In this document: positions 10,390 through 57,020 of the stretch, piece after piece
Numbering within the stretch: the first letter of the stretch is position 1
Layout: every line of letters begins with the position of its first letter
NCBI GenBank assembly: GCA_964399865.1
Contig: CAYNRJ010000001.1
Location: 266,050 to 330,049 of the forward strand
DNA length: 64,000 bases
Direction of reading: 5' to 3'
DNA from: an uncultured Candidatus Saccharibacteria bacterium
GTDB lineage: Bacteria > Patescibacteriota > Minisyncoccia > Phycocordibacterales > UBA2100
Translations under genes and position numbers: made by a program
The notes under the pieces: generated by a model
Databases searched by the model: none
What the model saw: the letters and a program-made list of their open reading frames with translations, nothing else
Told to the model about the DNA's origin: nothing

Positions 10390-11375
10390 ACGCTGAAATT
10401 GCGAATGGAGTAGAGATCGTCTTCATTCGGCTTCGCCTCCTGCTTTACAGCTGGATTTGGACTCTCGTTAGATGAAACCTCGTTCGCTGACGCTACCTCT
10501 TCTGGAGTAGCCGTCTGTGCTTCAGGAACCGGAGATACACTTGCGGCGGTCTTCTGCTCTCGAGACAAAAGGTCACGAATGGCGGCAAGGTCGTCGACTG
10601 AGAAAAATTCGATAAGCACCTTTCCGCCCTGATCTTTTTTCTCGATGCGAACACGGGTACCAAGCGATTCGGTTAACTCACGCTCTAATAGAAGAAGTTC
10701 CGGTGTTAGATCAGGCTTGCGAGCACGCTCTGTCGCTATGCGACGCGCCACTTGTTCGGCATCACGCACGGTGAGCTTACGCGTCATGATCTCGTGGAAT
10801 AGGGTTTTCTGCTCCTCGGGACGATCTGTGAGCATAAGAAGAGGTCTCGTATGACCTTCGTTGATATCACCAGCCGCGAGCGAATTCTGCATCTCTTCAG
10901 GGAGCATGAGAATGCGCAGAGTGTTCGAGACATACTCACGGCTCTTTCCTACCCGTTTCCCTATTTCCGTGTGCTTCAAACCGAATTCTTTAAAAAGCCG
11001 ATCGAATGCCTTTGCTCTGTCTATCGCATTCAAATCCTCACGTTGCAGGTTCTCAATGATCGCAAGCTCCAGTTTCATCCGATCGTCGTCCTCTCCGTTT
11101 CGAATGACAACAGGTACCTGTAAGATTCCCGCTAATTTCGCAGCGCGGAGTCTGCGTTCTCCAGCGATAAGCTCGTATTCGACTGAAATACCCTCTCCGG
11201 GACGCTCTACTTCCTTTCGCGTGACGGTAAGGGGTTGGAGTACTCCGTACTGACGAATCGACTCGGAAAGCGACGAAAGTGCCGTCTCATCAAAGACTTT
11301 GCGTGGTTGAAATGGGTTAGGTTTTATTCGCTCCACTTCCACCCAAAAAATAGCATCGCCGTAATATCCCGACAT
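10386..11375 (-). CDS. parB: ParB/Spo0J-like partition protein
   Basis: ParB N-terminal domain (VERIKPNPFQPRK, GERRLRAA), a helix-turn-helix and a C-terminal dimerisation region. No adjacent parA. Confidence 0.8.
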   Translation of the reverse strand: MSGYYGDAIFWVEVERIKPNPFQPRKVFDETALSSLSESIRQYGVLQPLTVTRKEVERPGEGISVEYELIAGERRLRAAKLAGILQVPVVIRNGEDDDRMKLELAIIENLQREDLNAIDRAKAFDRLFKEFGLKHTEIGKRVGKSREYVSNTLRILMLPEEMQNSLAAGDINEGHTRPLLMLTDRPEEQKTLFHEIMTRKLTVRDAEQVARRIATERARKPDLTPELLLLERELTESLGTRVRIEKKDQGGKVLIEFFSVDDLAAIRDLLSREQKTAASVSPVPEAQTATPEEVASANEVSSNESPNPAVKQEAKPNEDDLYSIRNFSV

Positions 11376-11407
11376 GCCGAAAATTATATCACGCTACTTT
11401 TATATTT

Positions 11408-11532
11408 TGTGCCGGGAGAGAGAATCGGTCACGGGTTTTCGCGTGCTCGCGAAACCCGCTACCCTGCCTCACTCGCCTACGCTCGCTCCGGCCTTCGATT
11501 CTCTGCTCCTTTCTCGCTTCGCTCGAAATTTG
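11408..11532 (-). repeat. tRNA-Leu(CAA) 3' trailer module
   Basis: Read on the minus strand after the tRNA: spacer AAATTTCGAGCGAAGCGAGAAAGGAGCAG, then AGAGAATCGAAG, then a 66-nt insert beginning gccggagcg with gcgagtgaggc and a gggtttcgcg/cgcgaaaccc hairpin, then GATTCTCTCTCCCGGCACA, which is identical to the tRNA 3' end. Confidence 0.6.
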
Positions 11533-11614
11533 TGCCGGGAGAGAGAATCGAACTCTCACATCTTGCGATACACGATTTTGAGTCGTGCGCGTCTACCAAT
11601 TCCGCCATCCCGGC
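11533..11614 (-). tRNA. tRNA-Leu (anticodon CAA), long variable arm
   Basis: Cloverleaf on the reverse strand: acceptor GCCGGGA/TCCCGGC, anticodon loop CTCAAAA, long variable arm, T-arm GAGAG-TTCGATT-CTCTC, discriminator A. CCA is not encoded (the tRNA is followed by CA). Confidence 0.8.
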
Positions 11615-11669
11615 AATGGGCCCGCGAAAGACTCGCGTAGGCGGCCAGAGTGTCTATAATACGCCAGCT

Positions 11670-12569
11670 ATGGGTAAGAAACAAAAGGTGCTGATCCTGG
11701 TGGGACCCACATCCTCCGGCAAAAGCGCTCTCGCTGTCGAGCTCGCAAAGAAGCTAGATGGTGAGATTATTTCCGCTGATTCTCGGCAAGTATACAGAGG
11801 GCTTAATATCGGAACTGGGAAGATTACGAAACGCGAAATGAGAGGGGTGCGCCATCACCTTTTGGACGTCGCATCCCCGAGGCGCATATTTACTGCACAC
11901 GAATACGAGAGCGCTGCACGAAGTGTGATCAATGAAATCGCTGCGCGCGGGAAACTGCCCATTATTGCCGGCGGTACCGGATTCTATATAGATGCGCTCG
12001 TGGGCCGCATTACCCTTCCCAACGTACCTGTAAATACAAAATTGCGAGCGATTCTTGAAAAAAAGACTGCAATGCAGCTGTTTGCCCTTTTAAATAAGCG
12101 AGACAAGGAGCGAGCAAAAAACATAGACCCGCACAACTCACGACGACTTATCCGCGCACTCGAGATCGTATCAGCTCTCGGGTCAGTCCCCCACCCTCCC
12201 GCACATCGTGCTTCGTACGATACTCTGTGGATTGGTATCGAGTCGCCGCTTTCGGAACTTCTAGAAAAGATCAAGGTGCGACTTTCCGCGCGTATAAGAC
12301 AAGGCATGGTTGGCGAAGCAAAGAAGCTTCGAGCAGGTGGATTATCATGGAAACGAATGGAGTCCCTCGGGCTTGAATACCGTGCTCTCGCTCGCCTACT
12401 TCAAAACAAGATCACGAGAAAGGAATTTGAATCAGAACTTCTTGGAGAAATTCGACGCTATGCAAAACGCCAGATTACATATTGGAAACGCAATAAAGAC
12501 ATTCTATGGTTTGAGAAGTTTAAAAAAACTACCATTGAGAGACACGTGCTGGCATGGCTGAAAGAATAA
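11670..12569 (+). CDS. miaA: tRNA dimethylallyltransferase
   Basis: P-loop start MGKKQKVLILVGPTSSGKSALAVELA and the SADSRQVYRGLNIGT motif. The ORF-track 5' extension from 11235 would overlap the tRNA and parB and was rejected. Confidence 0.85.
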   Translation: MGKKQKVLILVGPTSSGKSALAVELAKKLDGEIISADSRQVYRGLNIGTGKITKREMRGVRHHLLDVASPRRIFTAHEYESAARSVINEIAARGKLPIIAGGTGFYIDALVGRITLPNVPVNTKLRAILEKKTAMQLFALLNKRDKERAKNIDPHNSRRLIRALEIVSALGSVPHPPAHRASYDTLWIGIESPLSELLEKIKVRLSARIRQGMVGEAKKLRAGGLSWKRMESLGLEYRALARLLQNKITRKEFESELLGEIRRYAKRQITYWKRNKDILWFEKFKKTTIERHVLAWLKE

Positions 12570-13051: not shown

Positions 13052-13576
13052 TCAATCACACAGCGGCTCCCACGGCCTGAGGAGGCCTGCAGGCATTCCG
13101 CTCTCTTCACCGGTCTCCGGATCAGTAGGCCGGTCAGCAAGTAATACGCGCATGAGCGTATCCACCACAAGCCACCCCACAAGGATGATAATAAGTCCGA
13201 CAAACACGTTGGTGAATATGCTTCGCGCTTCGTGCGCCTTACTCGCGCTGCCCCCCGCGGTGACGTGCTTCCAACCGGCCCATGCGAACATAATCGCGGA
13301 GAAAAATATGGCGATATAAATGCCCCCATTTAGCACCCTTTTGGCGAGCTCTCCGATGTGGCAAACGGTGCACTCAGTCCCCTCTTTTACACCATCTCCA
13401 TCCCTATCGATGGCTACGCCGTCACATGGAACTATCTGCTCACCAAACCCCGCCGCAGCAAAGGCGATCGACGGCAACAAGGACATCAGTACGATGAATC
13501 CGAGGACCCAACCCACCGCTAACTTGCGATACATGTGAGATATTGTAACACCAAAAAACATTCGCCCCTCGCTCAC
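13052..13576 (-). CDS. small Cys-rich membrane protein (signal/anchor, CDGVAIDRDGDGVKEGTECTVCH segment, two TM helices)
   Basis: The topology resembles the 2-TM small-protein array at 23.7-26.4 kb. No confident family assignment. Confidence 0.45.
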   Translation of the reverse strand: MSEGRMFFGVTISHMYRKLAVGWVLGFIVLMSLLPSIAFAAAGFGEQIVPCDGVAIDRDGDGVKEGTECTVCHIGELAKRVLNGGIYIAIFFSAIMFAWAGWKHVTAGGSASKAHEARSIFTNVFVGLIIILVGWLVVDTLMRVLLADRPTDPETGEESGMPAGLLRPWEPLCD

Positions 13577-13605
13577 TTTTTGCTTTTAGGTATAATCAAC
13601 CCGTT

Positions 13606-13688
13606 GCGCCGATGGTAGAGCGGTCAAATACGACGCGCTGTAGACGCGTTGCCTTCGGGCTACGGGGGTTCGAATCCCTCTCGGCGCA
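13606..13688 (+). tRNA. tRNA-Tyr (anticodon GTA), long variable arm
   Basis: Acceptor GCGCCGA/TCGGCGC, anticodon loop CTGTAGA, variable arm GCCTTCGGGCTAC, T-arm GGGGG-TTCGAAT-CCCTC, discriminator A. Followed by CA, not CCA. TATAAT at 13591-13596 lies just upstream. Confidence 0.8.
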
Positions 13689-13891
13689 CAAAATGAAAAT
13701 ACCGGCCTCGTGCCGGTCGTTTTCTTTTTGTGGCACGAAGCGAGCTGCCTGCGCAGCTTGCGAGGGGGATTCGAACGCCGGAACGATGCGAGGCGAGGCG
13801 AGTACGCCGAGCCGTGAGGCGGTGCCTAGCCCGAGTCGAGCGACGGCGAGACAAGAGGCGAAGGAGAATCCCCTTCTCTTCTCGGCGCACA
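13689..13891 (+). repeat. tRNA-Tyr 3' trailer module
   Basis: Spacer with a terminator-like hairpin and CACGAAGCGAGCTGCCTGCGCAGCTTGCGAG, then GGGGGATTCGAAC (13764-13776), then a 90-nt insert gccggaacgatgcg...gccgtgaggcggtgcctag...gaggcgaaggag (13777-13866), then AATCCCCTTCTCTTCTCGGCGCACA, which copies the tRNA-Tyr T-stem and 3' end. Confidence 0.6.
13701..13730 (+). terminator. hairpin plus T-run (accggc ctcgt gccggt cgttttctttttg) inside the tRNA-Tyr trailer
   Basis: Read directly from the sequence. Confidence 0.4.
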
Positions 13892-13896
13892 CAAAT

Positions 13897-22773: not shown

Positions 22774-22858
22774 GGGCAGATGGCGGAATTGGTATACGCG
22801 CTAGCCTTAGGAGCTAGTCCCGCAAGGGTTGGGAGTTCGAGTCTCCCTCTGCCCACCA
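22774..22858 (+). tRNA. tRNA-Leu (anticodon TAG), CCA encoded
   Basis: Acceptor GGGCAGA/TCTGCCC, anticodon loop CTTAGGA, long variable arm, T-arm TGGGAGTTCGAGTCTCCC (7-bp stem), ends ACCA. Confidence 0.8.
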
Positions 22859-23685
22859 TGGAGTTCAAATACTTCTCAAAAGACGGCGCTGTCTTTCCTG
22901 TTTCTGATGCTGTCATTCCAATTTCCAATATCGAGTACTCATATGGATTTGGAGTATACGAAACGATTCGGGTAACAAATGGAGTGCCTTACTTTCTTAA
23001 GGATCATTTGGAGCGCCTCTTGAGTTCGGCGCAGATCATAGATCTTGAGCATCCCTATTCGGAGGATTTCGTGACACGCGCTATTCAGGAACTTATTCAG
23101 AAGAATCAGGTTGATACGTGCAACCTCAAGATTCTACTAATTGGAGGCACGGAAAGAGAGAGGGCGGCGTTATACATTCTATGCCTTAACCCTCTCTTCC
23201 CAGATAAGAAACTGTATCGTGACGGAGCACACTGTATAACCTACGAATATGAACGTATCTTCCCTCACGCGAAAACTCTCAATATGCTGGGAAGTTATAT
23301 CGCGTACCGAAAAGCAAAACGCGAAGGCGCGTACGATGCGATCCTCGTTGATCGAAATGGATGTATTACAGAAGGAACGAGGACAAACTTTTTTTGTATC
23401 CAAGACAAAGTACTGATCTCCCCTCCCTCGCAAAAGATATTGCCAGGAGTTACGCGAAAGGTCCTCGAAAAAGTGGCTTCAGAAAATGGATACACGCTCG
23501 AGGAACGAGATATATCGCTCGCCGATGCACAAAAGTACGACGGTGCGTTCTTGACGAGTACTTCAACAAAAATCTTACCCATTCAAAAAATCGACTCTAT
23601 TACAATTAAGGGACCGAGTTCCCCACTCCAGGAACTTATGCGACAGTTCGATATGTTTGTGGAAAAAAGCGCCGGTATTTTGTAG
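22858..23685 (+). CDS. class IV PLP aminotransferase (branched-chain/D-amino-acid aminotransferase family)
   Basis: Fold-type IV motifs (YGFGVYETIR, EGTRTNFFCI, ILPGVTRK). The start ATG overlaps the last base of the tRNA. Confidence 0.7.
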   Translation: MEFKYFSKDGAVFPVSDAVIPISNIEYSYGFGVYETIRVTNGVPYFLKDHLERLLSSAQIIDLEHPYSEDFVTRAIQELIQKNQVDTCNLKILLIGGTERERAALYILCLNPLFPDKKLYRDGAHCITYEYERIFPHAKTLNMLGSYIAYRKAKREGAYDAILVDRNGCITEGTRTNFFCIQDKVLISPPSQKILPGVTRKVLEKVASENGYTLEERDISLADAQKYDGAFLTSTSTKILPIQKIDSITIKGPSSPLQELMRQFDMFVEKSAGIL

Positions 23686-23721
23686 CGCTAGTCAGCATAG
23701 TGACGCCTCAACTGAGAGGCT

Positions 23722-24033
23722 TTACTCTCCTAGGAATGGAGCGTCGTTAATACGGCTCATATCTGGCTTATATGTACCGTCTTCACGGAGGCCAAGATCA
23801 AAAGTATTACTTATGAGCATCAGGATTGCCCAGAATGAGACCATCACTAGCATTCCCACAACTCCCCATATCATGTGCTGGATTCCCTCATTTCTACTTG
23901 CCCCCTCATCTAGTTTCCAAAGAAATTGAACTAGCCCCCACATAAACAGGAAAAAGCCTGTCGCAAAGACAAGATACATTGCTGGTGTAATTATAAAATC
24001 GACAAACCTACCCAGAAGTACTGTCGGCTCCAT
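23722..24033 (-). CDS. small 2-TM protein, member of the pilin-like paralog array (no signal peptide)
   Basis: MWGLVQFLWKLDEGASRNEGIQHMIWGVVGMLVMVSFWAI shares the WG...G..K/E..I.WG...LFVMVS.WG core with its neighbours. Confidence 0.5.
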   Translation of the reverse strand: MEPTVLLGRFVDFIITPAMYLVFATGFFLFMWGLVQFLWKLDEGASRNEGIQHMIWGVVGMLVMVSFWAILMLISNTFDLGLREDGTYKPDMSRINDAPFLGE

Positions 24034-24097
24034 ATTTTATTTCAGATCTTTATCGACTCATCATATCGAAACATGCCGATTTTGAGTATCCTAGGTC

Positions 24098-24511
24098 CTA
24101 ATACTCCGTAGTACAGTCCTCATCAGCGCCACCATCGCAATACTCTACACCTCCTACACCTCCGTAATTCACACTTGGAATCGTGATGGTTGTCTCATCA
24201 ACACCGAAGGTATTTTGGATAAGTTTGACGATTCCCCAAATCGATACCATGACAAAGAGAGCAATAGCGCCCCAAAACATTATCTTCAAACCATCCGACG
24301 AACCTTCGGAGCCTGCTCCCCATAGGTACTTGATGAGACCCCAGAAGAAGACCACTAGGCCGAGCGTGATGAGAAGCGCGATGAGCCCATTTAGAAGACT
24401 GCCTATTGTCCCAAGTATGGTTCCGAACGTACTGTCCCCGTCCGCTGCCAAAGCAGCACTCGGCAACAACAAACAGACGAGAGCGAGTGAGAATAGGGCT
24501 GATGTACGCAT
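24098..24511 (-). CDS. TrbC/VirB2-like (T4SS pilin-like) small protein: signal peptide plus two TM helices
   Basis: MRTSALFSLALVCLLLPSAALA signal peptide, then FFWGLIKYLWGAGSEGSSDGLKIMFWGAIALFVMVSIWGIV and a Gly/Cys-rich tail. Confidence 0.55.
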   Translation of the reverse strand: MRTSALFSLALVCLLLPSAALAADGDSTFGTILGTIGSLLNGLIALLITLGLVVFFWGLIKYLWGAGSEGSSDGLKIMFWGAIALFVMVSIWGIVKLIQNTFGVDETTITIPSVNYGGVGGVEYCDGGADEDCTTEY

Positions 24512-24634
24512 ACGGATTTTAAAGTGTAATTAGTTTATCCTGTGTATTAGTAGTATCTCTATGGTATCGGACTCCTTAGAAAATACAACGCCCATAGGCA
24601 ATATCTGTGGACAATGTAGTGCCTGAGACACCTC

Positions 24635-24964
24635 TTAATGCTCTCCTCCTTCTTCCTTCTTTGGGGCTGAGAAGGTCCTCATAACAAAGACGGCGACAGA
24701 GACGAGGATAATAATCGCAAGAATGGCACTCGTTATCTTCGGGTAGCGCTCAAAATACTGCACGATCCCCATAATTACAACGAGGACAAAGAGAATGGCC
24801 ACCGCCCACTCCATTACTTTAATACTTGAATCCCGGTAGCTCGGCCATGTGCCGAGGCGTGGAAAATAACTCGCAAGCCCACCCGCAAACACGAGAATCG
24901 CCACGGTCAGCATGATGCCTGTGAAAAGATTGAAGATTTCAGCGATTTGAACGAAGGTGACCAT
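24635..24964 (-). CDS. small 3-TM membrane protein within the array (divergent from the other members)
   Basis: Hydrophobic 109-aa ORF with an acidic C-terminal tail. Confidence 0.4.
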   Translation of the reverse strand: MVTFVQIAEIFNLFTGIMLTVAILVFAGGLASYFPRLGTWPSYRDSSIKVMEWAVAILFVLVVIMGIVQYFERYPKITSAILAIIILVSVAVFVMRTFSAPKKEEGGEH

Positions 24965-24979
24965 GTTCTTGTGGCTACA

Positions 24980-25297
24980 TTATGACCCAAAAAGAGTGCG
25001 CTGAAGGATCGCTACTATGCCCCAGATCGAAACCATGACAAAAAGTGCGACGATGCCCCAGAGAAAGTACGCTTTTCGTTTATCCGCATCTTCTTGGAGC
25101 TTCCCCATACCTGCAGTCATGCCCCAGAAATACACTACGACACCGAGGGTGAGGAGCAGTGCCGTCGCGACATTCAAAAATCCTACCAGATTCGCAACTA
25201 GCTCTGAGAAATTACGAGGTGCACGTGCCACATCTGCTGCTGCGGCAATTCCAGGCATCGATAGAAAAGCGAGAGCGCAAAGCATGAGGAACTTCAT
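24980..25297 (-). CDS. TrbC/VirB2-like small protein (paralog)
   Basis: Signal peptide, then VVYFWGMTAGMGKLQEDADKRKAYFLWGIVALFVMVSIWGIV. Confidence 0.55.
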   Translation of the reverse strand: MKFLMLCALAFLSMPGIAAAADVARAPRNFSELVANLVGFLNVATALLLTLGVVVYFWGMTAGMGKLQEDADKRKAYFLWGIVALFVMVSIWGIVAILQRTLFGS

Positions 25298-25387
25298 ACG
25301 AGATACTGTAACACACTACCCCCCGAGTCTTTTTGACGCGGAGGGTAGTGAAGAGTTATAGATATAACGCTATAAGATGAGCTGTTA

Positions 25388-25849
25388 TTAGCAGCCCTCG
25401 ATACCCGGATCAGTTTCGCATTCAGCCGCAGTTGGCCCATCCGCGCCAGCACCTGCAGCAGCTCCAGCACCAGCTCCGCCGGTAACCTGCAAGTTAGCTG
25501 GGTTAACTACGTCTGAACCCCTTACGCTATCGACGTTGAGAGTTTGCTGAAGGAGCTGAACCAAACCCCAGATTGAAACCATGACAAAGAGACCGACTAT
25601 GCCCCATAGCATTATCTGGAGACCACCCTTACTGCCCTCTTCTCCTCCTATCTTAAATAGATACTTTACAAGGCCCCAGAGGAATATAACTACCGCGACC
25701 GTGAGAAGTAGTGGTATTAAAGAATTTACAATGCCGCTCAAACTAGTAACTGTTCCTGCGATACCGTCTTCGGCAAAAGTAATAAGCGGAAATGCTAACA
25801 GTAACGCAGCTAGAATCGCTCCGCTCACCGCTTGTAATTTATTGGTCAT
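25388..25849 (-). CDS. TrbC/VirB2-like small protein (paralog) with a Gly/Ala-rich Cys-containing tail
   Basis: Signal peptide, then VIFLWGLVKYLFKIGGEEGSKGGLQIMLWGIVGLFVMVSIWGLV. Confidence 0.55.
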   Translation of the reverse strand: MTNKLQAVSGAILAALLLAFPLITFAEDGIAGTVTSLSGIVNSLIPLLLTVAVVIFLWGLVKYLFKIGGEEGSKGGLQIMLWGIVGLFVMVSIWGLVQLLQQTLNVDSVRGSDVVNPANLQVTGGAGAGAAAGAGADGPTAAECETDPGIEGC

Positions 25850-25993
25850 ACAATCTTATTAATTTCGATTACCTTTAATGCGGCTCATAATAGCACTCAA
25901 TATATTCAGTCTTTTCTCATGTTTACCCCTATGTGGATAAGTAGGCCCAAGAGATCCCTCCAGGGTATAGGAGGCACCCTCAAGCGATTCCGA

Positions 25994-26437
25994 TTATATT
26001 GAGGCTATAAGCCCCTCATTGGGGATATCGAGCCAAACAGTAGGCTCGATGAGTTGGGTGACCGTCCCTCCTATAAGGGTCGCTATTACCCACGCGCCAA
26101 GTATTAATATTGATCCAATTATGACGTATAAGAAGTTACTTTTTGCCTTCTCAAGCTGACTCGAATTTCCACGTGCCGACACGAAGAGGAAGCCCGAATA
26201 TACGATAAAGATTGTGAGGATCGGGAGCGATATCATAACCATCGCCTGGAGAGCTGCTGCGATGAATTCAGGTACAGTACCAAATTTAAGAGGATTTGGT
26301 ATGCCGGCTTTCGCACCATCTGCGGCAAATGCAATTGCCGTGAAGGCAAAGAAAACGAGCGTTGTGAGGAGAAATATGGCGACAGTGCCATGCATCAACC
26401 CCAGAATTCGACGTGTCAGACCCGATGAAATTTTCAT
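25994..26437 (-). CDS. TrbC/VirB2-like small protein (paralog)
   Basis: Signal peptide/anchor, then a loop ARGNSSQLEKAKSNFLYVIIGSILILGAWVIATLIGG that resembles T4SS pilin motifs. Confidence 0.55.
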   Translation of the reverse strand: MKISSGLTRRILGLMHGTVAIFLLTTLVFFAFTAIAFAADGAKAGIPNPLKFGTVPEFIAAALQAMVMISLPILTIFIVYSGFLFVSARGNSSQLEKAKSNFLYVIIGSILILGAWVIATLIGGTVTQLIEPTVWLDIPNEGLIASI

Positions 26438-26450
26438 GATATGGGTTCTT

Positions 26451-27740
26451 TTAAAATAGCTCAGCTAATTCCTGATCGGCCCGTAATATGGCCTCGTTTA
26501 AGCGTAGCGCCCCAGACGTTACGTTCTCTATCATAGCTCGAAAGACAGTCCTCGTCCCGTCAGAGTCAGGATCAGCCCACGCGCGCGAGATAATAGCTTG
26601 CCTGCTTACGAGCAATCCATCCCCCGTTTTCCCGCTTAGGACATTTCGTCTCGCGGAGGCCATGCCGAGGTTCGTAGCAAGGGCATCGGACGCATCAGCT
26701 GAGGCGAGACGGGAGGCGACGGTAGCGGCCCCGAGCGGATTTCTCGTTGTGCGCGTCTTCGCTATCCCATATACCTTTGCCACATCCACCTGGCGCTCTG
26801 CGGATCGTATCTGAGGAATTGCAGCGACTCCAAAATTGAGGTTTGGGTTAAGCTGCGCGAGGTCATCTTGCTCGCTCGCATAGCCCACATAGAGGGCAAG
26901 GTCGCCCGAAGCAAATGCGGATTTTGATTCAGGGAGCGCGCGATTCCAAGAATAAATAGACTTGGAAGGATCTGCGAACTCCGCATAAAAACGAATCGCC
27001 GATTCCGCAGCCTGCCTTGCTCCTCCCGACTGCTCAGAAAGCACTGTATTGTACCCTCCCTCGTCCGTACGGATGACGATTGGGTTTCCAGCCTGGAGGA
27101 TAAGGAGGCTCATAATATCTTTTGCATGAGTGACGTTTCGGTACTCACCGAAGGAAACGGTGGACTTGGTTATCTGACCTTCATCGTTTTTCTTAGTTAT
27201 CTTCTGCGATATACCACTGATCTCGTCCCAAAAGCGAGGTGGTGTTGCATAGCCTGCTGTGGAGAAAAGGTCTCGATTCCAGTATAGAACCAGAGGATCT
27301 GCAACAAGCGGCATCGCCATTATGCCGGTTCGTAGGAGAAATGGGTCCGCCGCTTCAATGAATGTATTCCGAAACTGCGTCTCTGTAAGCTGTTCGTATG
27401 TCGTCGGTGATATCTTCCGAGAATCTTGAATCGCATAATCTTGACTCAAAATGAAAAGGTCCGGCGCGCTGCCTGTTGCAAGCGCCTCTGTAAGATCCTC
27501 CATGAAAGTGCTCGCATTTTTCTGCACATACGTGACCTGCTCATATGTCTTATCGAGATCGGACACTTGCTCGAGAACTTCGTTAAATGCAGTTTGATCT
27601 AGTGTGCCCCATATCCTCACCGCTCCGAGTGAAGCAGAAGTATTACCATTGATGACAAGTGCAAAAATAAGCACCCCTGAAATTGCGAGGGCCGCAAAGA
27701 TTCCAAGAAGAACGAGTTGAAATGCTGAAAGTTTAGGCAT
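26451..27740 (-). CDS. extracellular solute-binding protein (ABC transporter substrate-binding, family 1-like), membrane-anchored
   Basis: N-terminal TM anchor then a periplasmic-binding-protein fold. No permease or ATPase genes are adjacent within the window. Confidence 0.65.
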   Translation of the reverse strand: MPKLSAFQLVLLGIFAALAISGVLIFALVINGNTSASLGAVRIWGTLDQTAFNEVLEQVSDLDKTYEQVTYVQKNASTFMEDLTEALATGSAPDLFILSQDYAIQDSRKISPTTYEQLTETQFRNTFIEAADPFLLRTGIMAMPLVADPLVLYWNRDLFSTAGYATPPRFWDEISGISQKITKKNDEGQITKSTVSFGEYRNVTHAKDIMSLLILQAGNPIVIRTDEGGYNTVLSEQSGGARQAAESAIRFYAEFADPSKSIYSWNRALPESKSAFASGDLALYVGYASEQDDLAQLNPNLNFGVAAIPQIRSAERQVDVAKVYGIAKTRTTRNPLGAATVASRLASADASDALATNLGMASARRNVLSGKTGDGLLVSRQAIISRAWADPDSDGTRTVFRAMIENVTSGALRLNEAILRADQELAELF

Positions 27741-27748
27741 GATGGTCT

Positions 27749-28348
27749 TTATTGTGCCATAGATACGGGTCGGAAGATGAGTCCATAGTGGTGAGCACCT
27801 GCAGGAAACTCTTTTTCAAGTACGAATCCTGCTCGTTGGGCAAAATCGATCGCCATTCCCCTCTCAAATACTTCCTCTTCCGCCGGACCCATGCCGTCAA
27901 AGGAGTCTTGCCAGTCGATGATAGAGACACGGCCGCGAGAATTCAGAATGCGACGCGCTTCCGCGAGAACGGCAAGCTTACTTTCAATTTGGAAGAGAAT
28001 ATTTGAAAGAAGAACGAGATCAATCGTGTTATCCGCAATCTTAGACGCACGAGGCATCTCTAAATCCGCCCAAATAACGTCGACCGTGTCGAATCCTCGC
28101 CGCATCGCCTCATTTGCTATGCGTCGTAAAAGATCCTTCTGAATATCGATCGCGTACACACGTCCCTTTCCTTCCAACCTTTCAGCAACAGAGAGCACGT
28201 GAGCACCACTCCCAGAGCCAAAATCGGCAACATGCATTCCCTCTCGGATGCCGAGTGACCATACGTGCCCTTTTGGATGAGCGAATCTACCTAATGAAGT
28301 AAGATCGCGCGTTTGCACTTCTTGCATTCTTTTTATTATACCGTGCAA
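27749..28348 (-). CDS. class I SAM-dependent methyltransferase
   Basis: Motif I VADFGSGSGAHVL, acidic motif II YAIDI and the DLVLLSNIL region. Confidence 0.7.
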   Translation of the reverse strand: MHGIIKRMQEVQTRDLTSLGRFAHPKGHVWSLGIREGMHVADFGSGSGAHVLSVAERLEGKGRVYAIDIQKDLLRRIANEAMRRGFDTVDVIWADLEMPRASKIADNTIDLVLLSNILFQIESKLAVLAEARRILNSRGRVSIIDWQDSFDGMGPAEEEVFERGMAIDFAQRAGFVLEKEFPAGAHHYGLIFRPVSMAQ

Positions 28349-39985: not shown

Positions 39986-40558
39986 CTACGACCGACGGAT
40001 GAAGAGCCAGCGCTCGCCGTCCTTCGGCATGGGAAGCGCTTCGAGCAAAGCGGTTCGTGGCAATCGTTCGCCGAGGTCCACGACCGCGCTCCAGTCGTGC
40101 ACATCGGGCATTGTTGCCAAGGTGACGGGACGAAACCCTAGGATGCCAGCGGTACGCATCACCGGAAACGCGTCAGTGATGAGGAAGAGACCTTTGCCCT
40201 GAGGCGCTTTCGCCACGAGCTCAGTCATGAGATCGAACTGTACGCCATTCCCGCGTAGCTCAGGCGTCACCCAGACCGTCCCCAACTCGTACCAGCCATC
40301 GACTGCGGTGCGCCAAAGCGCAGCATACCCTTGGACGAAACGCAGACTCGCCACAGGCGAATCGATCTGCCGCACCACCGCGCGCCCAGCGTAGAAACGC
40401 TTCGAAAGCTTTCTCGCCGTTGTCCGGGCAGAGAAATACTTCCCCTCCGCTCGAATCTGCTCAGAAAGAACAATCCACCTATCCTGCATTCGAATGACCT
40501 CCTCATGAATGCAAAGCGGCCTCCGATTGAGGCCGCTTTGGAAATTTTGTAGAGACAA
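39986..40558 (-). CDS. putative GNAT-like N-acetyltransferase (GC-rich gene)
   Basis: GWYELGTVWVTPELRGNG resembles the GNAT motif A. Weak. The start is uncertain. Confidence 0.35.
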   Translation of the reverse strand: MSLQNFQSGLNRRPLCIHEEVIRMQDRWIVLSEQIRAEGKYFSARTTARKLSKRFYAGRAVVRQIDSPVASLRFVQGYAALWRTAVDGWYELGTVWVTPELRGNGVQFDLMTELVAKAPQGKGLFLITDAFPVMRTAGILGFRPVTLATMPDVHDWSAVVDLGERLPRTALLEALPMPKDGERWLFIRRS

Positions 40559-40665
40559 AAACTCTAAACGACCTCAATCATTGAGACCGTACGGCGGCAA
40601 TTCATTGTAGATTTCGCGCTCATGTATTTCTTTTATACCATAGCCCCATATTCGTGCAATAAGAA

Positions 40666-40696
40666 TGCGGGCGCGCCACGAGGGCGCGCCCGCATG
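40666..40696 (-). terminator. GC hairpin gcgggcgcgcc/ggcgcgcccgc immediately downstream of the hisG stop
   Basis: Read directly from the sequence. Confidence 0.4.
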
Positions 40697-40708
40697 CAGC
40701 TTGCGACA

Positions 40709-41611
40709 TTACAAGGTCGCGATGACAGCCGATATCGGGCTCACGAGGAACCCCTCCGCACCGGAGGCTGCGCAAACAACGATGAGGTGATTCGCGCTCG
40801 TGGCAGGAACGACAGCGCTCACCGAATGGAACGGCGGCGTCCCAGAAAGCGAAGTCACGGTCGGATTGCGCATCGCAGGGAGAAGCTTCAGGACATCTCC
40901 GAGGCGAGTATCGGGCACGTTCATCGTGAGAAGTACCTTACCCCGTGCCTCGACGACACCCCGTAAGATTGCCGCGAGAGCGCTGACCTTCGCCGCAGTC
41001 TCTCTGTCCTTCAGCACCTTTCTATTCGCGATGAGGACGACGCTCGATTCCAGGATTGAATCGATGGCGCGCAAACGATTCGCACGAAGAGATGTCCCCG
41101 TTTCCGTCAGGCACACGCCGTACGGATAGATGTCGGGGATTTCGGCCTCGACGGAGCCCACAGACGAGACCACCGTGACGTTCTTGCCGCGCTCCGTGAA
41201 GAACGCTCTCGTTAGCCGCGGATACTCCGACAGGATACTGCTCCCATCCGGGATCGCGCTGGCATCCTTTTCTCGTCCGCTTTCCGGGCCGATGACGACG
41301 ATCCGCGCCTTGGAAGTCGTGCCGCGATTGAATTCGAGATCAGCGCAAACTTCGACGCGCGCGCCCGCTTCTCGCACAGCATCGAGCCCCGTGATCCCGA
41401 CATTGAATTCCCCGCTCTCGACGAGCTTAGGAATGCGAGTGGGCTTCACGAACCTCGCAACGTGCGGCCATGAGACGCCCTCTAAGAGGGCCTCGTTGCT
41501 GCCGGATTGCCTGGACAACATGATCCTGGCTGCCCGTAGATGGTCGACAGACCTCTCCTCGATACTCTTCCCAGACGGCAAAGCAATGGTACCCATTACT
41601 GTATTCCTCAA
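40709..41611 (-). CDS. hisG: ATP phosphoribosyltransferase, long form with a C-terminal regulatory domain
   Basis: GTIALPSGKSIEE, GSVEAEIPDIYPYGVCLTETGTSLRANRL and a HisG C-terminal domain. GC-rich. No other his genes are nearby. Confidence 0.8.
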   Translation of the reverse strand: MRNTVMGTIALPSGKSIEERSVDHLRAARIMLSRQSGSNEALLEGVSWPHVARFVKPTRIPKLVESGEFNVGITGLDAVREAGARVEVCADLEFNRGTTSKARIVVIGPESGREKDASAIPDGSSILSEYPRLTRAFFTERGKNVTVVSSVGSVEAEIPDIYPYGVCLTETGTSLRANRLRAIDSILESSVVLIANRKVLKDRETAAKVSALAAILRGVVEARGKVLLTMNVPDTRLGDVLKLLPAMRNPTVTSLSGTPPFHSVSAVVPATSANHLIVVCAASGAEGFLVSPISAVIATL

Positions 41612-41637
41612 AGATCACGCGCCTGTTATGGGACATG

Positions 41638-41665
41638 AACGCAAAACCCCCTCGCAAGAGGGGGC
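41638..41665 (-). terminator. candidate attenuator terminator (CCCCCTC ttgc GAGGGGG then UUUUGCGUU) about 27 nt upstream of hisG
   Basis: Read on the minus strand, between the leader ORF and the hisG start. Confidence 0.4.
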
Positions 41666-41695
41666 TAGTTTGATTAGGGAAAAATGGAAATCAAC

Positions 41696-41755
41696 TCAAT
41701 CCTCTCTTGCGACGAGAATTAAGTGGTGATGGATTATGTTGCTTATCTTTTGCAT
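41696..41755 (-). CDS. candidate his leader peptide MQKISNIIHHHLILVARED (19 aa, three consecutive His codons)
   Basis: A small ORF immediately upstream of the terminator hairpin and hisG. The codons CAT CAC CAC are contiguous. Confidence 0.35.
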   Translation of the reverse strand: MQKISNIIHHHLILVARED

Positions 41756-41774
41756 GTATGTTCTTTGTACCTCT

Positions 41775-42560
41775 TTATATATTTTCTGTCAATTTCAAGA
41801 GTTCGGCGTGTAAGTCTGGGTTTGCTGCAACCATCTCCAAATCCCCCAATTTCCAAGGGTTACCCTTTGTATCGGTCACCTTGCAACCCGATTCAGCAAG
41901 GAGAAGCGAAGTGGGGGCAAAATCCCACACACTTCCCGCAAGCGGTACGTACCAATCCTTGCGCCCGCACGCGGTGTAGCAGGCATTAATCGAGAATGCT
42001 CCGACAGATCTCATTTGAATACGAGACTCATCAGCGTTCGCAAGAATATTGCGCATAAACTTAACCGCCTTTCCTTGAAGCGTGGAGGAACTGCTCCCCG
42101 AAGAATTGTGAAGCGTCTTCTTCTCCGCACAGTGGATTCGCTTTCCGTTTAAAAAAGCTCCTTTACCTTTCTCGGCAAAAAACAATTCGTTCGCGGTCGG
42201 AATGTAGATGGCAGAAAGTATGACCTCATTCTTGTGAATAAGACATACCATCGTACCGAAAAGCGGGATGTGTGCGGCAAAATTCTGAGTGCCATCAATT
42301 GGGTCGATTGCCCAGAGATATCCCGTGTCACCATCTGCATTTGTCTCACCACTCTCTTCGGCGACTATGCTATGTTCTGGATATGTTTTTTTAATTGCGG
42401 AAACAATGATTTCCTCGGAAAGAAAATCTGCTTTTGTGACCGAATCAGAGAGTCGATCTGATTTCATGTATTCCACCCCGACGGTTCCGAAGAGCTCGAG
42501 CACGGCATCGCCCGCCTTCTTTGCGATTTCTTGAATGAATGTATCAGCTCCTTTAGGCAT
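41775..42560 (-). CDS. inositol-monophosphatase family protein (SuhB/HisN-like phosphatase)
   Basis: IMPase motifs WAIDPIDGT and a metal-binding Asp/Glu set. HisN-type histidinol-phosphatases belong to this family, and the gene is adjacent to hisG. Confidence 0.7.
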   Translation of the reverse strand: MPKGADTFIQEIAKKAGDAVLELFGTVGVEYMKSDRLSDSVTKADFLSEEIIVSAIKKTYPEHSIVAEESGETNADGDTGYLWAIDPIDGTQNFAAHIPLFGTMVCLIHKNEVILSAIYIPTANELFFAEKGKGAFLNGKRIHCAEKKTLHNSSGSSSSTLQGKAVKFMRNILANADESRIQMRSVGAFSINACYTACGRKDWYVPLAGSVWDFAPTSLLLAESGCKVTDTKGNPWKLGDLEMVAANPDLHAELLKLTENI

Positions 42561-44585: not shown

Positions 44586-46133
44586 TTAGCGCATTTCTTC
44601 CGCCTTCTCCCGTATGTACACCATGAACTGATTCGAGAAATTAAGGAGGCGTTTGAATGGTGTCTCAATAATGAAGTCCATGATGAGGACGATCACGTTA
44701 ATTGATGAGAACGAGCGAGACAGCCATCTGCCCACGCGTACGATCGGTATCGCAAGCACACTCGAGAGAAGGAAGAGCGTACTGCCGCTTTCGACAACTT
44801 TCCAGCGCCTGGACTGATAACGAATGCGGAATGCAAAGTACGAGACGAGCGCGAGGAATAGTAGGAAGAGAATGATAGAGACAGGATTGAAATGTAGGAG
44901 TTGTAGGATGCCGATGAGCGCTCCGAATACAAAAACGATGAGTGCAAGATAGATAGTTCCAAATACGAGGGAGAGGCGTGTGTAATTATTACGTACTCGC
45001 ACGTTGCGCACCTTCCCTTCATAAATAACACCGCGGACTCCCTTCACTATCGCAGCGGTATTCGACTCATCGAGCGCACCGACTCTTCGAGTGAGCGCAA
45101 ATAGGAGCGCTGGGTGGAAGAGGATGTTAACTGAGAGTGGGAAATAATTTATGCCGCCAAGAATGATGACCTCATACGGTACTTCGATCGCGAGCGCGAC
45201 CAACATTTTTGTAAGGAACAAATACCCAACTGCTCGAATACCGCTTGATTTGATGCGTTCGTTCTCCTTTTCGTATTTCTTAGCAAGAAAATCCCTCGTG
45301 TGTTCTTCTAATTCGTGAGGCGAGTTAAGAACATGCTCCGCAGACGAACCATGATGCTGAATGACATCGCGGATAATATGGAAATAGATACTTTCATTTT
45401 TTATTTTCTGCGCGAGCTGCCACTGGAGCGGATTATCGACTGACTCACGTATGGTCGCTACGATTCCACCTAGGCGCTGGGCTACATTCTGGACATTCAG
45501 TCCTGGAAGTTTCCACTCGGGGACATATAAAAGCCACAGTGCGTATGACAGTCGCTCATTGTCTGCCGAAAGAAGCGATCGCCATGCAGCGCAGTAAAGT
45601 TGAGAATTAACTCCCTCTATTGAAACACCGGAAACTCCGACGTGTCCCTGCATCGACTTGTAAAATGCCTCGACGGTCGCGTCATCAACTGCGTATTGGA
45701 TCGGAGAAAGTCTCGCGTCGATCTCTGTCGCTGCAAAACTTAAGAGTCGTCGCGCAATGGTGCCACTCGCTCTTGCGGTATCGATAAGTCCGAGGAATTT
45801 CCAAACGATGACATCAATATCGGCACCAAGCTCTTCAGTAGCCTGCTCCTTTTGAAGGTACTGGCCATCTACAAGCTCCTGAAGCAGCGCCATGCCCGCG
45901 TGCATGTCACGTTCTATGAAAATACGTCTCTTGAGAATGCGTTCTATCGCGGAGCGACGGATCGTGTGCTCTTCACGATAATCAACGAGGTATCGAACCT
46001 TCTCATAGAAAGAAGCCGCCTTCCCGATGATTCGGTTAACTTCAAGAGCCTGTTCGCCGACAGGGAGGTCCGCGGCTGCCTTTTCGGCAGCGTCTACTTT
46101 AAGCACGAGTTCCCGTATGGGATCTGTGAGCAT
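44586..46133 (-). CDS. hypothetical protein (about 330-aa soluble N-terminal domain plus C-terminal TM helices)
   Basis: Long complete ORF with no family recognised. Confidence 0.5.
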   Translation of the reverse strand: MLTDPIRELVLKVDAAEKAAADLPVGEQALEVNRIIGKAASFYEKVRYLVDYREEHTIRRSAIERILKRRIFIERDMHAGMALLQELVDGQYLQKEQATEELGADIDVIVWKFLGLIDTARASGTIARRLLSFAATEIDARLSPIQYAVDDATVEAFYKSMQGHVGVSGVSIEGVNSQLYCAAWRSLLSADNERLSYALWLLYVPEWKLPGLNVQNVAQRLGGIVATIRESVDNPLQWQLAQKIKNESIYFHIIRDVIQHHGSSAEHVLNSPHELEEHTRDFLAKKYEKENERIKSSGIRAVGYLFLTKMLVALAIEVPYEVIILGGINYFPLSVNILFHPALLFALTRRVGALDESNTAAIVKGVRGVIYEGKVRNVRVRNNYTRLSLVFGTIYLALIVFVFGALIGILQLLHFNPVSIILFLLFLALVSYFAFRIRYQSRRWKVVESGSTLFLLSSVLAIPIVRVGRWLSRSFSSINVIVLIMDFIIETPFKRLLNFSNQFMVYIREKAEEMR

Positions 46134-56972: not shown

Positions 56973-57020
56973 GAAGCCCAGTGTACTCCTCCTACGAAAT
57001 CCTCCATCACTTGTCCACAA

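What the first reader, a model, noticed from the sequence alone, without database searches (positions are those of the whole stretch)
23722..26437. Tandem array of six small paralogous signal-peptide/2-TM proteins resembling TrbC/VirB2-type T4SS pilins
Five of six consecutive minus-strand genes (103-153 aa) share a core of the form TM1-WG..K/Y..G(loop with G/E/K)-I.WG...LFVMVS.WG.V. The sixth member carries the ARGNSSQLEKAKSNFLYVIIGSILILGA motif seen in Gram-positive-type VirB2 pilins. They differ strongly in their tails, which are Gly/Cys-rich or acidic. An array of diversified pilin-like subunits with no adjacent secretion ATPase is unusual. It could encode variable surface filament or attachment subunits, which is plausible for a host-associated reduced-genome bacterium. 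A related Cys-rich 2-TM protein sits at 13052-13576.
Basis: partly seen in the sequence, partly recalled or inferred. Interest (0 to 1): 0.6.

Follow-up and report, generated by a model that had tools for sequence, protein, structure and literature searches.

The report
VirB2-like pilin gene array, Paceibacteria
This is a real tandem array of six small membrane-hairpin proteins related to type IV secretion (VirB2-type) pilins; such arrays are already described in these ultra-small bacteria, but this one lies far from any secretion genes, in a deeply conserved operon.

Summary
Six same-strand ORFs sit exactly at the stated coordinates. All have Pfam T4SS_pilin (PF18895) as their only pilin-type hit; two pass the curated cut-off, one is borderline and three are below it. 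No holin or immunity family matches.

The most divergent member (g6) links by profile-profile comparison to the other five (88%), to classical Agrobacterium VirB2 (85%) and to a small VirB2-family protein of a pLS20-like Gram-positive conjugation cluster (93%).

The kind is already published. VirB2-like pilin arrays of 2-11 genes are reported in Patescibacteria, and one is essential in Southlakia epibionticum.

What I add:
- In 80 related Paceibacteria loci the array is an ancient, ordered set of orthologous subtypes (g6-g4-g3-g2-g1), not a recently diversified cassette.
- It follows a methyltransferase gene and an orphan membrane-anchored solute-binding protein gene with minimal gaps, next to gyrA.
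- No ATPase of VirB4 or VirD4 size with a Walker A motif lies within 10 kb in any locus.
- The best-conserved subtype (g2) has its own promoter, preceded by an exact DnaA-box-like TTATCCACA.
- Covalently fused 2-3-module versions exist elsewhere.

Two of the six (g1, g3) lack signal peptides. Pilus formation and dependence on a type IV secretion system (T4SS) remain inferred.

The parts
27749..28348 (-). Class I SAM-dependent methyltransferase gene, likely first gene of the operon that contains the array
   Evidence: Pfam Methyltransf_31/25/11. The gap to the next gene is 8 nt here and has a median of 5 nt in 57 related loci.
26451..27740 (-). Orphan solute-binding protein of the distant MalE/sugar type, anchored by an N-terminal membrane helix, directly upstream of the array
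   Evidence: SBP_bac_1 E 7e-16 and SBP_bac_8. It has weak similarity to solved sugar-binding proteins. An SBP gene is present in 66 of the 80 related loci; where it directly precedes a g6-type gene (51 loci) the median gap is -4 nt, a stop/start overlap. No permease or ATPase gene was seen nearby.
25994..26437 (-). g6: signal peptide plus 2-TM hairpin, the member closest to canonical VirB2/PF18895. It carries a 20-aa C-terminal extension absent from its orthologues.
   Evidence: PF18895 39.5 bits against a cut-off of 26.6. hhalign of its orthologue profile: 85% to VirB2, 93% to the Macrococcus plasmid VirB2-family protein. AF2 model of the mature part gives hairpin H17-49/H54-91, pLDDT 77.5. 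A g6-type gene is first in the array in 73 of 80 loci.
25932..25940 (-). Exact TTATCCACA (DnaA-box consensus), 82 nt upstream of the g5 start codon
   Evidence: This is the only exact copy in the 64-kb window. The same element sits upstream of g2-type genes in 24 related loci as the exact 9-mer and in 44 as the 8-mer, against 0.24 and 0.54 expected.
25388..25849 (-). g5: signal peptide plus 2-TM hairpin and a long Gly/Ala-rich tail ending in a Cys pair. It is a lineage-specific extra copy of the g2 subtype.
   Evidence: PF18895 28.1 bits. 43% identical to g2. Classed as g2-type by subtype HMMs. AF2 model pLDDT 71.7 with a disordered tail.
24980..25297 (-). g4: signal peptide plus 2-TM hairpin. 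It lacks the C-terminal tail that its orthologues have.
   Evidence: PF18895 17.4 bits, below the cut-off. Orthologue alignment.
24635..24964 (-). g3: leaderless 3-TM variant with a cytoplasmic KKEEGGEH tail. Most orthologues have a signal peptide.
   Evidence: PF18895 21.7 bits. Hydropathy. Orthologue alignment.
24561..24614 (-). Promoter region of g2: TTGTCCACA (24606-24614), then 17 nt, TTGTAT (24583-24588), 16 nt, TACCAT (24561-24566)
   Evidence: Read. The architecture box - 17/18 nt - TTGTGT - 16 nt - TAnnAT is conserved in the related loci and in the independent genome CP066682.1.
24098..24511 (-). g2: signal peptide plus 2-TM hairpin and a tail with a CDGGADEDC loop. This is the best-conserved subtype and the candidate major subunit.
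   Evidence: PF18895 26.0 bits and TrbC 18.2 bits. Orthologues have a mean pairwise identity of 64.5%.
23722..24033 (-). g1: leaderless 2-TM hairpin, the terminal gene of the array
   Evidence: PF18895 18.3 bits. No orthologue has a signal peptide. A g1-type gene is last in the array in 70 of 80 loci.
23705..23720 (.). Short GC-rich hairpin between the convergent g1 and aminotransferase genes, a possible bidirectional terminator
   Evidence: Terminator-like site. This is a consensus match only.
13052..13576 (-). g7: detached seventh family member. Signal peptide, an N-terminal Cys-pair segment, then the 2-TM hairpin.
   Evidence: PF18895 20.3 bits. 20 orthologues conserve VPC...C(T/G)F. In more distant relatives this subtype lies between the SBP gene and g6.

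Best explanation
The six genes, plus the detached seventh at 13052-13576, encode VirB2-type (Pfam T4SS_pilin) membrane-hairpin subunits of a Paceibacteria (CPR/Patescibacteria) bacterium.

**Shown here:**
- They are homologous small proteins with a helical hairpin.
- Most have a Sec-type leader ending in AxA.
- Lys/Arg are concentrated in the inter-helix loop, and the tails are net acidic.
- They form an ancient, ordered set of distinct subtypes: g6, g4, g3, g2, g1, plus g7.
- By spacing they are co-transcribed as methyltransferase-SBP-g6-(g5)-g4-g3.
- g2-g1 has its own promoter, which carries a DnaA-box-like site.

**Inferred:**
- The proteins insert with both ends outside, and the leader is removed by signal peptidase.
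- The different subtypes co-assemble into one envelope-spanning or pilus-like structure, driven by the MPF-FATA-like type IV secretion system that most Patescibacteria encode elsewhere on the chromosome.
- g2 would be the major subunit. The 3-TM g3 and leaderless g1 would be specialised or anchoring subunits.
- The structure would serve contact or exchange with a host cell.
For: **Family.** PF18895 hits for all seven. hhalign gives g6-type vs g1-5-type 88%, vs VirB2 85% colinear over 95 columns, and vs a pLS20-like plasmid VirB2-family protein next to VirD4 93%. Reversed controls score 12-20 against 38-41 for the true comparisons. NCBI names a g6 orthologue 'pilin'.

**Fold and topology.** AF2 hairpins. 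Hydropathy and charge distribution.

**Ancient ordered subtypes.** All 80 related loci carry pilin-like ORFs, 78 of them a same-strand array of 3-7. A g6-type gene is first in 73 and a g1-type gene last in 70. Orthologues are 40-65% identical, while paralogues are at most 44%.

**Co-assembly hint.** 67 of the best 150 family representatives are covalent 2-3-module fusions with a single leader.

**Operon.** Gap medians are 5, -4, 1, 3, 112 and 36 nt. There is a conserved promoter and box upstream of g2.

**Literature.** VirB2-like arrays are widespread in Patescibacteria. The pilin series is essential for epibiotic growth in S. epibionticum. 2,474 virB4 genes were found in 3,035 genomes, and only 1,135 of 1,948 assemblies have a pilin gene near virB4 (PMC12102498, PMC10633639, PMC12857230).
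Against: - No T4SS gene lies in the 64-kb window or within 10 kb of the array in 80 relatives. I could not check whether this genome has VirB4 at all.
- Four of the six score below Pfam's cut-off. The g1-5 profile does not reach classical VirB2 directly (11%).
- Foldseek against the PDB returns only generic hairpins, so the fold is consistent but not diagnostic.
- No pilus has ever been seen for this family.
- The tight coupling to a solute-binding protein is not a feature of any known T4SS.
- The 3-TM g3 could not leave the membrane as a classical pilin does.
Confidence: 0.6

Rival explanations
1. The array is a T4SS-independent membrane complex. The hairpin proteins oligomerise in the cytoplasmic membrane together with the co-encoded membrane-anchored solute-binding protein. 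They would act as a channel, receptor or uptake device, or as an envelope scaffold. The homology to VirB2 would then reflect ancestry only.
For: - The SBP gene overlaps or abuts the first pilin gene (median -4 nt over 51 loci) and is linked to the array down to 30-35% SBP identity.
- No permease or ATPase gene lies nearby, and no VirB4-like ATPase lies within 10 kb in any locus.
- The 3-TM g3 subtype and the covalent multi-module fusions fit a membrane-resident oligomer at least as well as a filament.
Against: - The whole gyrA...infB block is syntenic in these small genomes, so linkage alone is weak evidence.
- No known SBP-dependent system uses 2-TM hairpins.
- Family members in Firmicutes and in Saccharibacteria lie inside T4SS clusters (PMC10633639).
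Confidence: 0.2
2. This is the first reader's reading: a cassette of diversified, interchangeable pilin variants used for surface variation or for adapting to different hosts, as proposed for the VirB2 paralogues of Bartonella and Anaplasma.
For: - Pairwise identity within the array is low (10-44%).
- The tails differ and carry Cys-pair loops.
- Copy number of the g2 subtype varies from 1 to 4 between genomes, and the window has an extra g2-like copy, g5.
- The published survey suggests this reading (PMC12102498).
Against: - Each subtype has orthologues in fixed order across deep divergence (GyrA down to about 56-60% identity).
- The subtypes are as conserved as the neighbouring SBP, methyltransferase and RbfA genes.
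- Subtypes differ in architecture: leaderless, 3-TM, or with an N-terminal Cys pair. That points to distinct roles rather than interchangeable variants.
Confidence: 0.12
3. The genes encode unrelated small membrane proteins such as holins, bacteriocin immunity proteins or toxins, and match the pilin HMM only through hydrophobic composition.
For: Four of the six are below the Pfam cut-off. Helical hairpins give non-specific structural matches.
Against: - No holin or immunity family was hit in Pfam, NCBIfam or PHROGs.
- Reversed-profile controls rule out composition as the cause of the hhalign matches.
- No relatives were found in 2.9 million viral contigs.
- The genes sit in a housekeeping chromosomal context.
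Confidence: 0.03

Closest known systems
VirB2-like pilin arrays of Patescibacteria: 441 arrays of 2-11 genes in 383 assemblies (Quinonero-Coronel et al. 2025, PMC12102498), and the essential pilin series in the T4SS cluster SEML1_0006-0019 of Southlakia epibionticum (Wang et al. 2023, PMC10633639)
   Same: Both are tandem small PF18895/PF04956-type hairpin proteins on a CPR chromosome, with low identity between members (published mean 25%, maximum 54%; here 10-44%). By the survey's criteria (E below 0.001), g2, g3, g5 and g6 would be counted as an array.
   Different: - This array is not inside or near a T4SS cluster.
- It sits in a methyltransferase-SBP operon beside gyrA.
- It shows a fixed order of orthologous subtypes across Paceibacteria, a class the survey did not single out for arrays.
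- In relatives only the first gene is recognised by the precomputed Pfam hits on record, so most of the array would go unnoticed.
Classical VirB2/TrbC pilins (Agrobacterium T-pilus VirB2; Pfam PF04956)
   Same: Both have a long leader ending in an Ala-rich cleavage site, a two-helix membrane hairpin, a basic loop and a length of about 70-110 aa when mature. The g6-type profile aligns end to end with a VirB2 profile (85%).
   Different: - The PF04956 cut-off is not reached (best 18.2 bits against 27.9).
- The host is a monoderm.
- There are no adjacent virB genes.
- There is no evidence of cyclisation.
- The g1-5 subtypes reach VirB2 only through g6.
Small leaderless VirB2-family or 'pilin-like' proteins of Gram-positive and mollicute conjugation systems (pLS20-like cluster of Macrococcus plasmid pJEK46-1; NCBIfam NF045849, Mbov_0395 family)
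   Same: The loop/TM2 motif is shared: RG..(E/D)...AK....Y(I/V)I.G..(I/L)..GA. hhalign gives 93% with 38% identity over 53 columns. The leaderless 2-TM form matches g1 and g3.
   Different: Those proteins are single-copy genes of about 76-80 aa inside conjugation clusters next to VirD4. NF045849 scores here are at most 22 bits against a cut-off of 40.
Tandem VirB2 paralogues of Bartonella and Anaplasma T4SS
   Same: Several VirB2 paralogues lie in a row.
   Different: Those are considered variable surface antigens. Here the paralogues are ancient, ordered and conserved.
Major/minor pilin gene sets of type IV pili (an analogy only; the family is unrelated)
   Same: This is a way the array may work: one abundant subunit plus several specialised ones, encoded together and assembled into one fibre. 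C-terminal disulfide loops are exposed.
   Different: The fold, leader type and assembly machinery all differ.

Membership tests
Pfam PF18895 T4SS_pilin | HMM score at or above the gathering cut-off (26.6 bits) | tested here: inconclusive
   g6 scores 39.5 and g5 28.1, both passing. g2 scores 26.0, just below. g3 21.7, g7 20.3, g1 18.3 and g4 17.4 are below. PF18895 is nevertheless the top or near-top hit for each. The sub-threshold members are clear paralogues of the passing ones.
Pfam PF18895 T4SS_pilin | Small protein with a two-helix transmembrane hairpin | tested here: met
   Hydropathy. AF2 hairpins in g5 (H30-66/H72-103) and mature g6 (H17-49/H54-91). g3 adds a third helix.
TrbC/VirB2 pilins (PF04956) | HMM score at or above the cut-off (27.9 bits) | tested here: not met
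   Only g2 matches, at 18.2 bits, E 0.003, over the leader and TM1 only. g6 orthologues carry weak precomputed PF04956 hits.
TrbC/VirB2 pilins (PF04956) | Remote homology to bona fide VirB2 by profile-profile comparison | tested here: inconclusive
   g6-type vs a 5-sequence VirB2 alignment: probability 85%, E 6e-6, colinear. The g1-5 type gives only 11%. Reversed controls score at most 20.
T4SS pilin (functional sense) | Encoded with or near VirB4, VirB6, VirB3 or VirD4 | tested here: not met
   None in the 64-kb window. No unexplained Walker-A ORF of at least 250 aa in 80 related loci of up to +-10 kb.
T4SS pilin (functional sense) | A T4SS is present somewhere in the same genome | not testable with these tools
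   Only short contigs could be fetched beyond the window. The literature reports 2,474 virB4 genes detected in a dataset of 3,035 Patescibacteria genomes.
T4SS pilin (functional sense) | Leader cleaved, and subunits polymerise into an extracellular pilus | not testable with these tools
   AxA motifs are present in g2, g4, g5, g6 and g7 (read from the sequences). No experimental data exist.
Patescibacterial VirB2 array (PMC12102498 definition) | At least two genes hitting PF18895 or PF04956 at E below 0.001 with more than 50% profile coverage, in tandem or separated by one gene, in a Patescibacteria genome | tested here: met
   g6, g5, g3 and g2 have E of 2.2e-4 or lower with near-full profile coverage. 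All 80 closest loci are Paceibacteria/Parcubacteria metagenome-assembled genomes.
Holins / bacteriocin immunity proteins | HMM match to a holin or immunity family | tested here: not met
   None in Pfam, NCBIfam or PHROGs.

The most novel reading that the evidence does not exclude
The array may be part of a Paceibacteria-wide module that is detached from the T4SS: methyltransferase, an orphan solute-binding protein, and five or six ordered VirB2-derived hairpin subtypes. Its major-subunit gene would be switched by DnaA through a consensus DnaA box at about -60. That would make it a surface conduit or uptake organelle built with, or gated by, a solute-binding protein, with its production coupled to the replication state of the cell.
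Probability: 0.15. Interest if true: 0.7.

Novelty: new member of a known kind. Interest (0 to 1): 0.38.

Why it matters
VirB2-like pilin arrays are among the few CPR-specific features with experimental weight. They are essential for the epibiotic life of a cultivated Saccharibacterium, and their role is unknown.

This locus adds four points for the largest CPR class:
- The array is a stable set of non-equivalent subunits. It is not a variation cassette.
- Standard annotation sees only the first gene.
- The array is physically separated from the secretion genes but joined to a solute-binding protein gene.
- The best-conserved subunit gene carries a DnaA-box-like site.

These points give testable handles on how ultra-small bacteria build their host-contact apparatus: which subunit is major, whether the SBP is part of the structure, and whether DnaA controls it.

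Tried and rejected
- **Sequence and profile search of the PDB.** Nothing significant. The pKM101 TraM pilin appears only at E 0.27.
- **Generic sigma-70/terminator scan of the array.** Fewer promoter hits than in shuffles, so uninformative. The conserved promoter only emerged from comparing orthologous upstream regions.
- **Rfam.** Only tRNAs in the window.
- **Extending beyond the window to look for VirB4.** Only Logan contigs of 6-11 kb could be fetched.
- **Cluster look-up.** It gave no names or accessions.
- **Viral contigs.** No relatives.
- **ORF at 13596-13892 next to g7.** It is not a gene. It overlaps tRNA-Tyr.
- **ATP-synthase c-subunit-like reading.** It has the same topology, fused repeats and Foldseek hits. 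I rejected it because the membrane helices have no conserved carboxylate.
- **Horizontal acquisition.** Rejected. GC content is only slightly lower than in the flanks and synteny is deeply conserved.
Full report

| Gene | Coordinates | Length (aa) |
|---|---|---|
| g1 | 23722-24033 | 103 |
| g2 | 24098-24511 | 137 |
| g3 | 24635-24964 | 109 |
| g4 | 24980-25297 | 105 |
| g5 | 25388-25849 | 153 |
| g6 | 25994-26437 | 147 |

They are true paralogues. BLASTP gives g2-g5 43% identity (E 4e-30), g2-g4 41% (5e-21), g1-g2 44% (3e-16), g3-g5 30% (6e-11) and g4-g6 25% (2e-6) (alignment). The ORF at 13052-13576(-), here g7, is a seventh member.

Three details need correcting:
- g1 and g3 have no signal peptide.
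- g3 has a third membrane helix and a KKEEGGEH tail.
- g4 has no tail.

**Family.**
- PF18895 (T4SS_pilin) is the only pilin-type family hit, and it is the top or near-top Pfam hit for every member. Scores are g6 39.5, g5 28.1, g2 26.0, g3 21.7, g7 20.3, g1 18.3 and g4 17.4 bits, against a cut-off of 26.6.
- PF04956 (TrbC/VirB2) is touched only by g2, at 18.2 bits.
- NCBIfam gives weak hits to the mollicute 'pilin-like conjugal transfer protein' family NF045849.
- No holin or immunity family appears in Pfam, NCBIfam or PHROGs.
- tblastn of g6 against 72,556 plasmids found only a 76-aa 'TrbC/VirB2 family protein' in a pLS20-like conjugation cluster of Macrococcus plasmids, upstream of VirD4-like and pLS20_p028-family genes.

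Profile-profile comparison used a g6-orthologue alignment (A3), the g1-5-type alignment (A2) and a VirB2 alignment (A4). A4 was built from genes annotated virB2 or TrbC/VirB2 on five plasmids. My remembered Agrobacterium sequence proved 100% identical to a deposited virB2.

| Comparison | hhalign probability |
|---|---|
| A3 vs Macrococcus plasmid protein | 93% |
| A3 vs A2 | 88% |
| A3 vs A4 (colinear from leader cleavage site to C-terminus) | 85% |
| A2 vs A4 | 11% |

Reversed-alignment controls score 12-20 against 38-41 for the true comparisons, so composition does not explain the matches. I conclude that g6 is a remote VirB2 homologue and the other five are its divergent relatives.

**Fold and topology.** AF2 gives a helical hairpin for g5 (pLDDT 71.7, tail disordered) and for mature g6 (pLDDT 77.5). 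Foldseek against the PDB finds only generic hairpins, so the fold agrees with VirB2 but is not diagnostic. Leaders end in AxA. Lys/Arg are concentrated in the inter-helix loop (1-4 per loop; the N-tails of g2 and g5 and all C-tails but g1's have at most one or two). The tails are net acidic. This fits a topology with both termini outside, as in VirB2 (established knowledge).

**Organism and family size.** g5 is on an NCBI contig of 613,030 bp. A scan of one genome per species found 555 loci encoding a g5 relative. The best 80 are all Parcubacteria/Paceibacterota metagenome-assembled genomes: Kaiser-, Adler-, Vogel-, Nomura-, Wolfe- and Campbellbacteria, among others. An exhaustive profile search found 17,187 clusters at 50% identity with E at or below 0.001.

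**Comparative anatomy.**
- All 80 loci carry pilin-like ORFs, and 78 of them have a same-strand tandem array of 3-7, most often 5.
- Subtype HMMs show a fixed order. A g6-type gene is first in 73 of 80 loci, a g1-type gene is last in 70 of 80, and the commonest pattern is g6-g4-g3-g2-g1.
- In more distant relatives a g7-type gene, with a conserved N-terminal Cys pair VPC...C(T/G)F, lies between the SBP gene and g6. In the window's clade it has moved next to clpB.

Each subtype has its own conserved architecture:
- g1 is always leaderless.
- g3 has three membrane helices and a basic/acidic cytoplasmic tail.
- g2 has a conserved KVTSTDPVIPKGIQINTG tail.

Mean pairwise identity among orthologues in the 15 canonical loci is below. 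Window paralogues are at most 44% identical. The mean identity of the window's SBP, methyltransferase and RbfA to their orthologues in the same loci is 51-58%.

| Subtype | Mean pairwise identity among orthologues |
|---|---|
| g2 | 64.5% |
| g6 | 57% |
| g1 | 56% |
| g4 | 48% |
| g3 | 40% |

The array is therefore old and its members are not interchangeable. This argues against a variation cassette.

The window has three lineage-specific features:
- an extra g2-like copy (g5) inserted after g6;
- a g4 without a tail, next to a g3 without a leader;
- a 20-aa extension on g6.

**Context.**
- The block gyrA - methyltransferase - SBP - array ... rbfA - infB is syntenic in almost all loci.
- Median gaps are methyltransferase-SBP 5 nt, SBP-g6 -4, g6-g4 1, g4-g3 3, g3-g2 112 and g2-g1 36. 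This suggests one transcript from the methyltransferase gene to g3, and a second for g2-g1.
- The SBP is a distant MalE/sugar-type binding protein with an N-terminal membrane anchor and no permease or ATPase gene nearby.
- The window otherwise holds housekeeping genes and no VirB4, VirD4 or VirB6.
- In the 80 loci the only Walker-A ORFs of at least 250 aa are IF2 and ClpB, a few chance motif matches in GyrA- and SBP-like ORFs, one RecG-like helicase and nine other unassigned ORFs of 259-389 aa, all smaller than a VirB4- or VirD4-type ATPase.
- In the complete Kaiserbacteria genome CP066682.1 the same operon is present. Only its first pilin gene has a Pfam hit on record.

**Regulatory element (new, beyond the finding).** Aligning the regions upstream of g2-type genes revealed a conserved architecture: (T/C)TATCCACA - 17/18 nt - TTGTGT - 16 nt - TACCAT (TAnnAT) - about 50 nt - ATG.
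- Exact TTATCCACA occurs 40 times in 2.29 Mb. 24 of these lie in the 290-nt windows upstream of g2-type genes, against 0.24 expected.
- TATCCACA occurs there 44 times out of 80, against 0.54 expected.
- No g4-type or g3-type gene has the element.
- The window has TTGTCCACA/TTGTAT/TACCAT upstream of g2 (24561-24614). Its only exact TTATCCACA lies upstream of g5 (25932-25940).
- CP066682.1 shows the same arrangement.

TTATCCACA is the DnaA-box consensus (established knowledge). DnaA binding here is an inference. I found no paper linking DnaA boxes and Patescibacteria.

**Fusions.** 67 of the best 150 family representatives contain two or three hairpin modules. They have a single leader, and the modules are joined by Gly/Pro/Ser-rich linkers. 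This is a Rosetta-stone-type hint that neighbouring subunits sit side by side. It also shows that a module can insert without its own leader, as g1 and g3 must.

**What is known.**
- Wang et al. [quoted passage not shown]
- Quinonero-Coronel et al. 2025 used PF04956 and PF18895 and reported 441 VirB2 arrays of 2-11 genes, with mean identity 25%. Pilin genes were near virB4 in 1,135 of 1,948 assemblies. They detected 2,474 virB4 genes in 3,035 genomes (PMC12102498).
- A 2025 review highlights the six VirB2-like pilins as a unique trait of these monoderm systems (PMC12857230).

The finding is therefore a new member of a known kind.

**Mechanism, and how sure I am.** I put homology to VirB2-type pilins at about 0.85-0.9. 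I put assembly of the subtypes into one T4SS-dependent envelope or pilus-like structure, with g2 as the major subunit, at about 0.5-0.6. The main rival, at about 0.2, is a T4SS-independent membrane complex that works with the SBP.

**Limits.**
- The presence of a T4SS in this genome could not be tested.
- ORF starts are taken as the longest possible.
- The 80 loci were selected by a motif of the g2/g4/g5 type, so the presence of one such gene is by construction. The arrays, their order, the synteny and the promoter element are not forced by that selection.

Noticed in passing
window 24561-24614(-) and 25932-25940(-); L002-L081 upstream of g2-type genes; L090:12500-12550: A conserved promoter carries a DnaA-box-like element: (T/C)TATCCACA - 17/18 nt - TTGTGT - 16 nt - TAnnAT. 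Exact TTATCCACA lies upstream of g2-type genes in 24 loci, against 0.24 expected. It is absent from g3-type and g4-type genes. This suggests control by DnaA or another factor of the best-conserved pilin gene.
   Followed up: partly
window 26451-28348(-); SBP and methyltransferase genes in L002-L081, L090: An orphan membrane-anchored sugar-type solute-binding protein gene and a class I methyltransferase gene precede the array, with overlapping or near-zero gaps, across Paceibacteria. No permease or ABC ATPase gene is nearby. The functional link to the pilin-like proteins is unknown.
   Followed up: partly
P0025-P0098; L067:7917-8945: Some proteins carry two or three pilin hairpin modules fused behind a single signal peptide and joined by Gly/Pro/Ser-rich linkers. 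They make up 67 of the best 150 representatives.
   Followed up: partly
window 24964-24980 (g4/g3 junction): Compared with orthologues, the window's g4 lacks its C-terminal tail and g3 lacks its signal peptide. g3 starts almost exactly at the mature N-terminus of its orthologues. A deletion across the junction is possible. Leaderless g3 also occurs in L007 and L061.
   Followed up: partly
window 13052-13576(-); g7-type ORFs in 20 loci: The g7 subtype has a conserved Cys pair just after the leader (VPC...C(T/G)F) and often a C-terminal Cys. Cys-pair loops also recur in the C-tails of other subtypes: window g2 CDGGADEDC, g5 CETDPGIEGC, and g4 orthologues LCDxFGxC. These are possible surface disulfide loops.
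   Followed up: no
window 11235-12569(+), 22780-23685(+), 13596-13892(-): The longest-ORF starts of the miaA-like and aminotransferase IV genes run over tRNA-Leu genes (11532-11614, 22774-22858), so the real starts lie downstream. The 98-aa ORF at 13596-13892 overlaps tRNA-Tyr and is not a gene.
   Followed up: yes
window 54450-57041(-): An 863-aa protein has an LCAT-like alpha/beta-hydrolase domain and a C-terminal FIMAH domain. It is a candidate secreted or surface lipase-esterase of a host-dependent bacterium.
   Followed up: no
window 44586-46133(-) and 2729-3640(-): Two sizeable ORFs (515 aa and 303 aa) have no Pfam or NCBIfam match.
   Followed up: no
window 40001-42000: This is a local GC maximum (0.563 against about 0.49 elsewhere). 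No rRNA or other Rfam family was found there.
   Followed up: no
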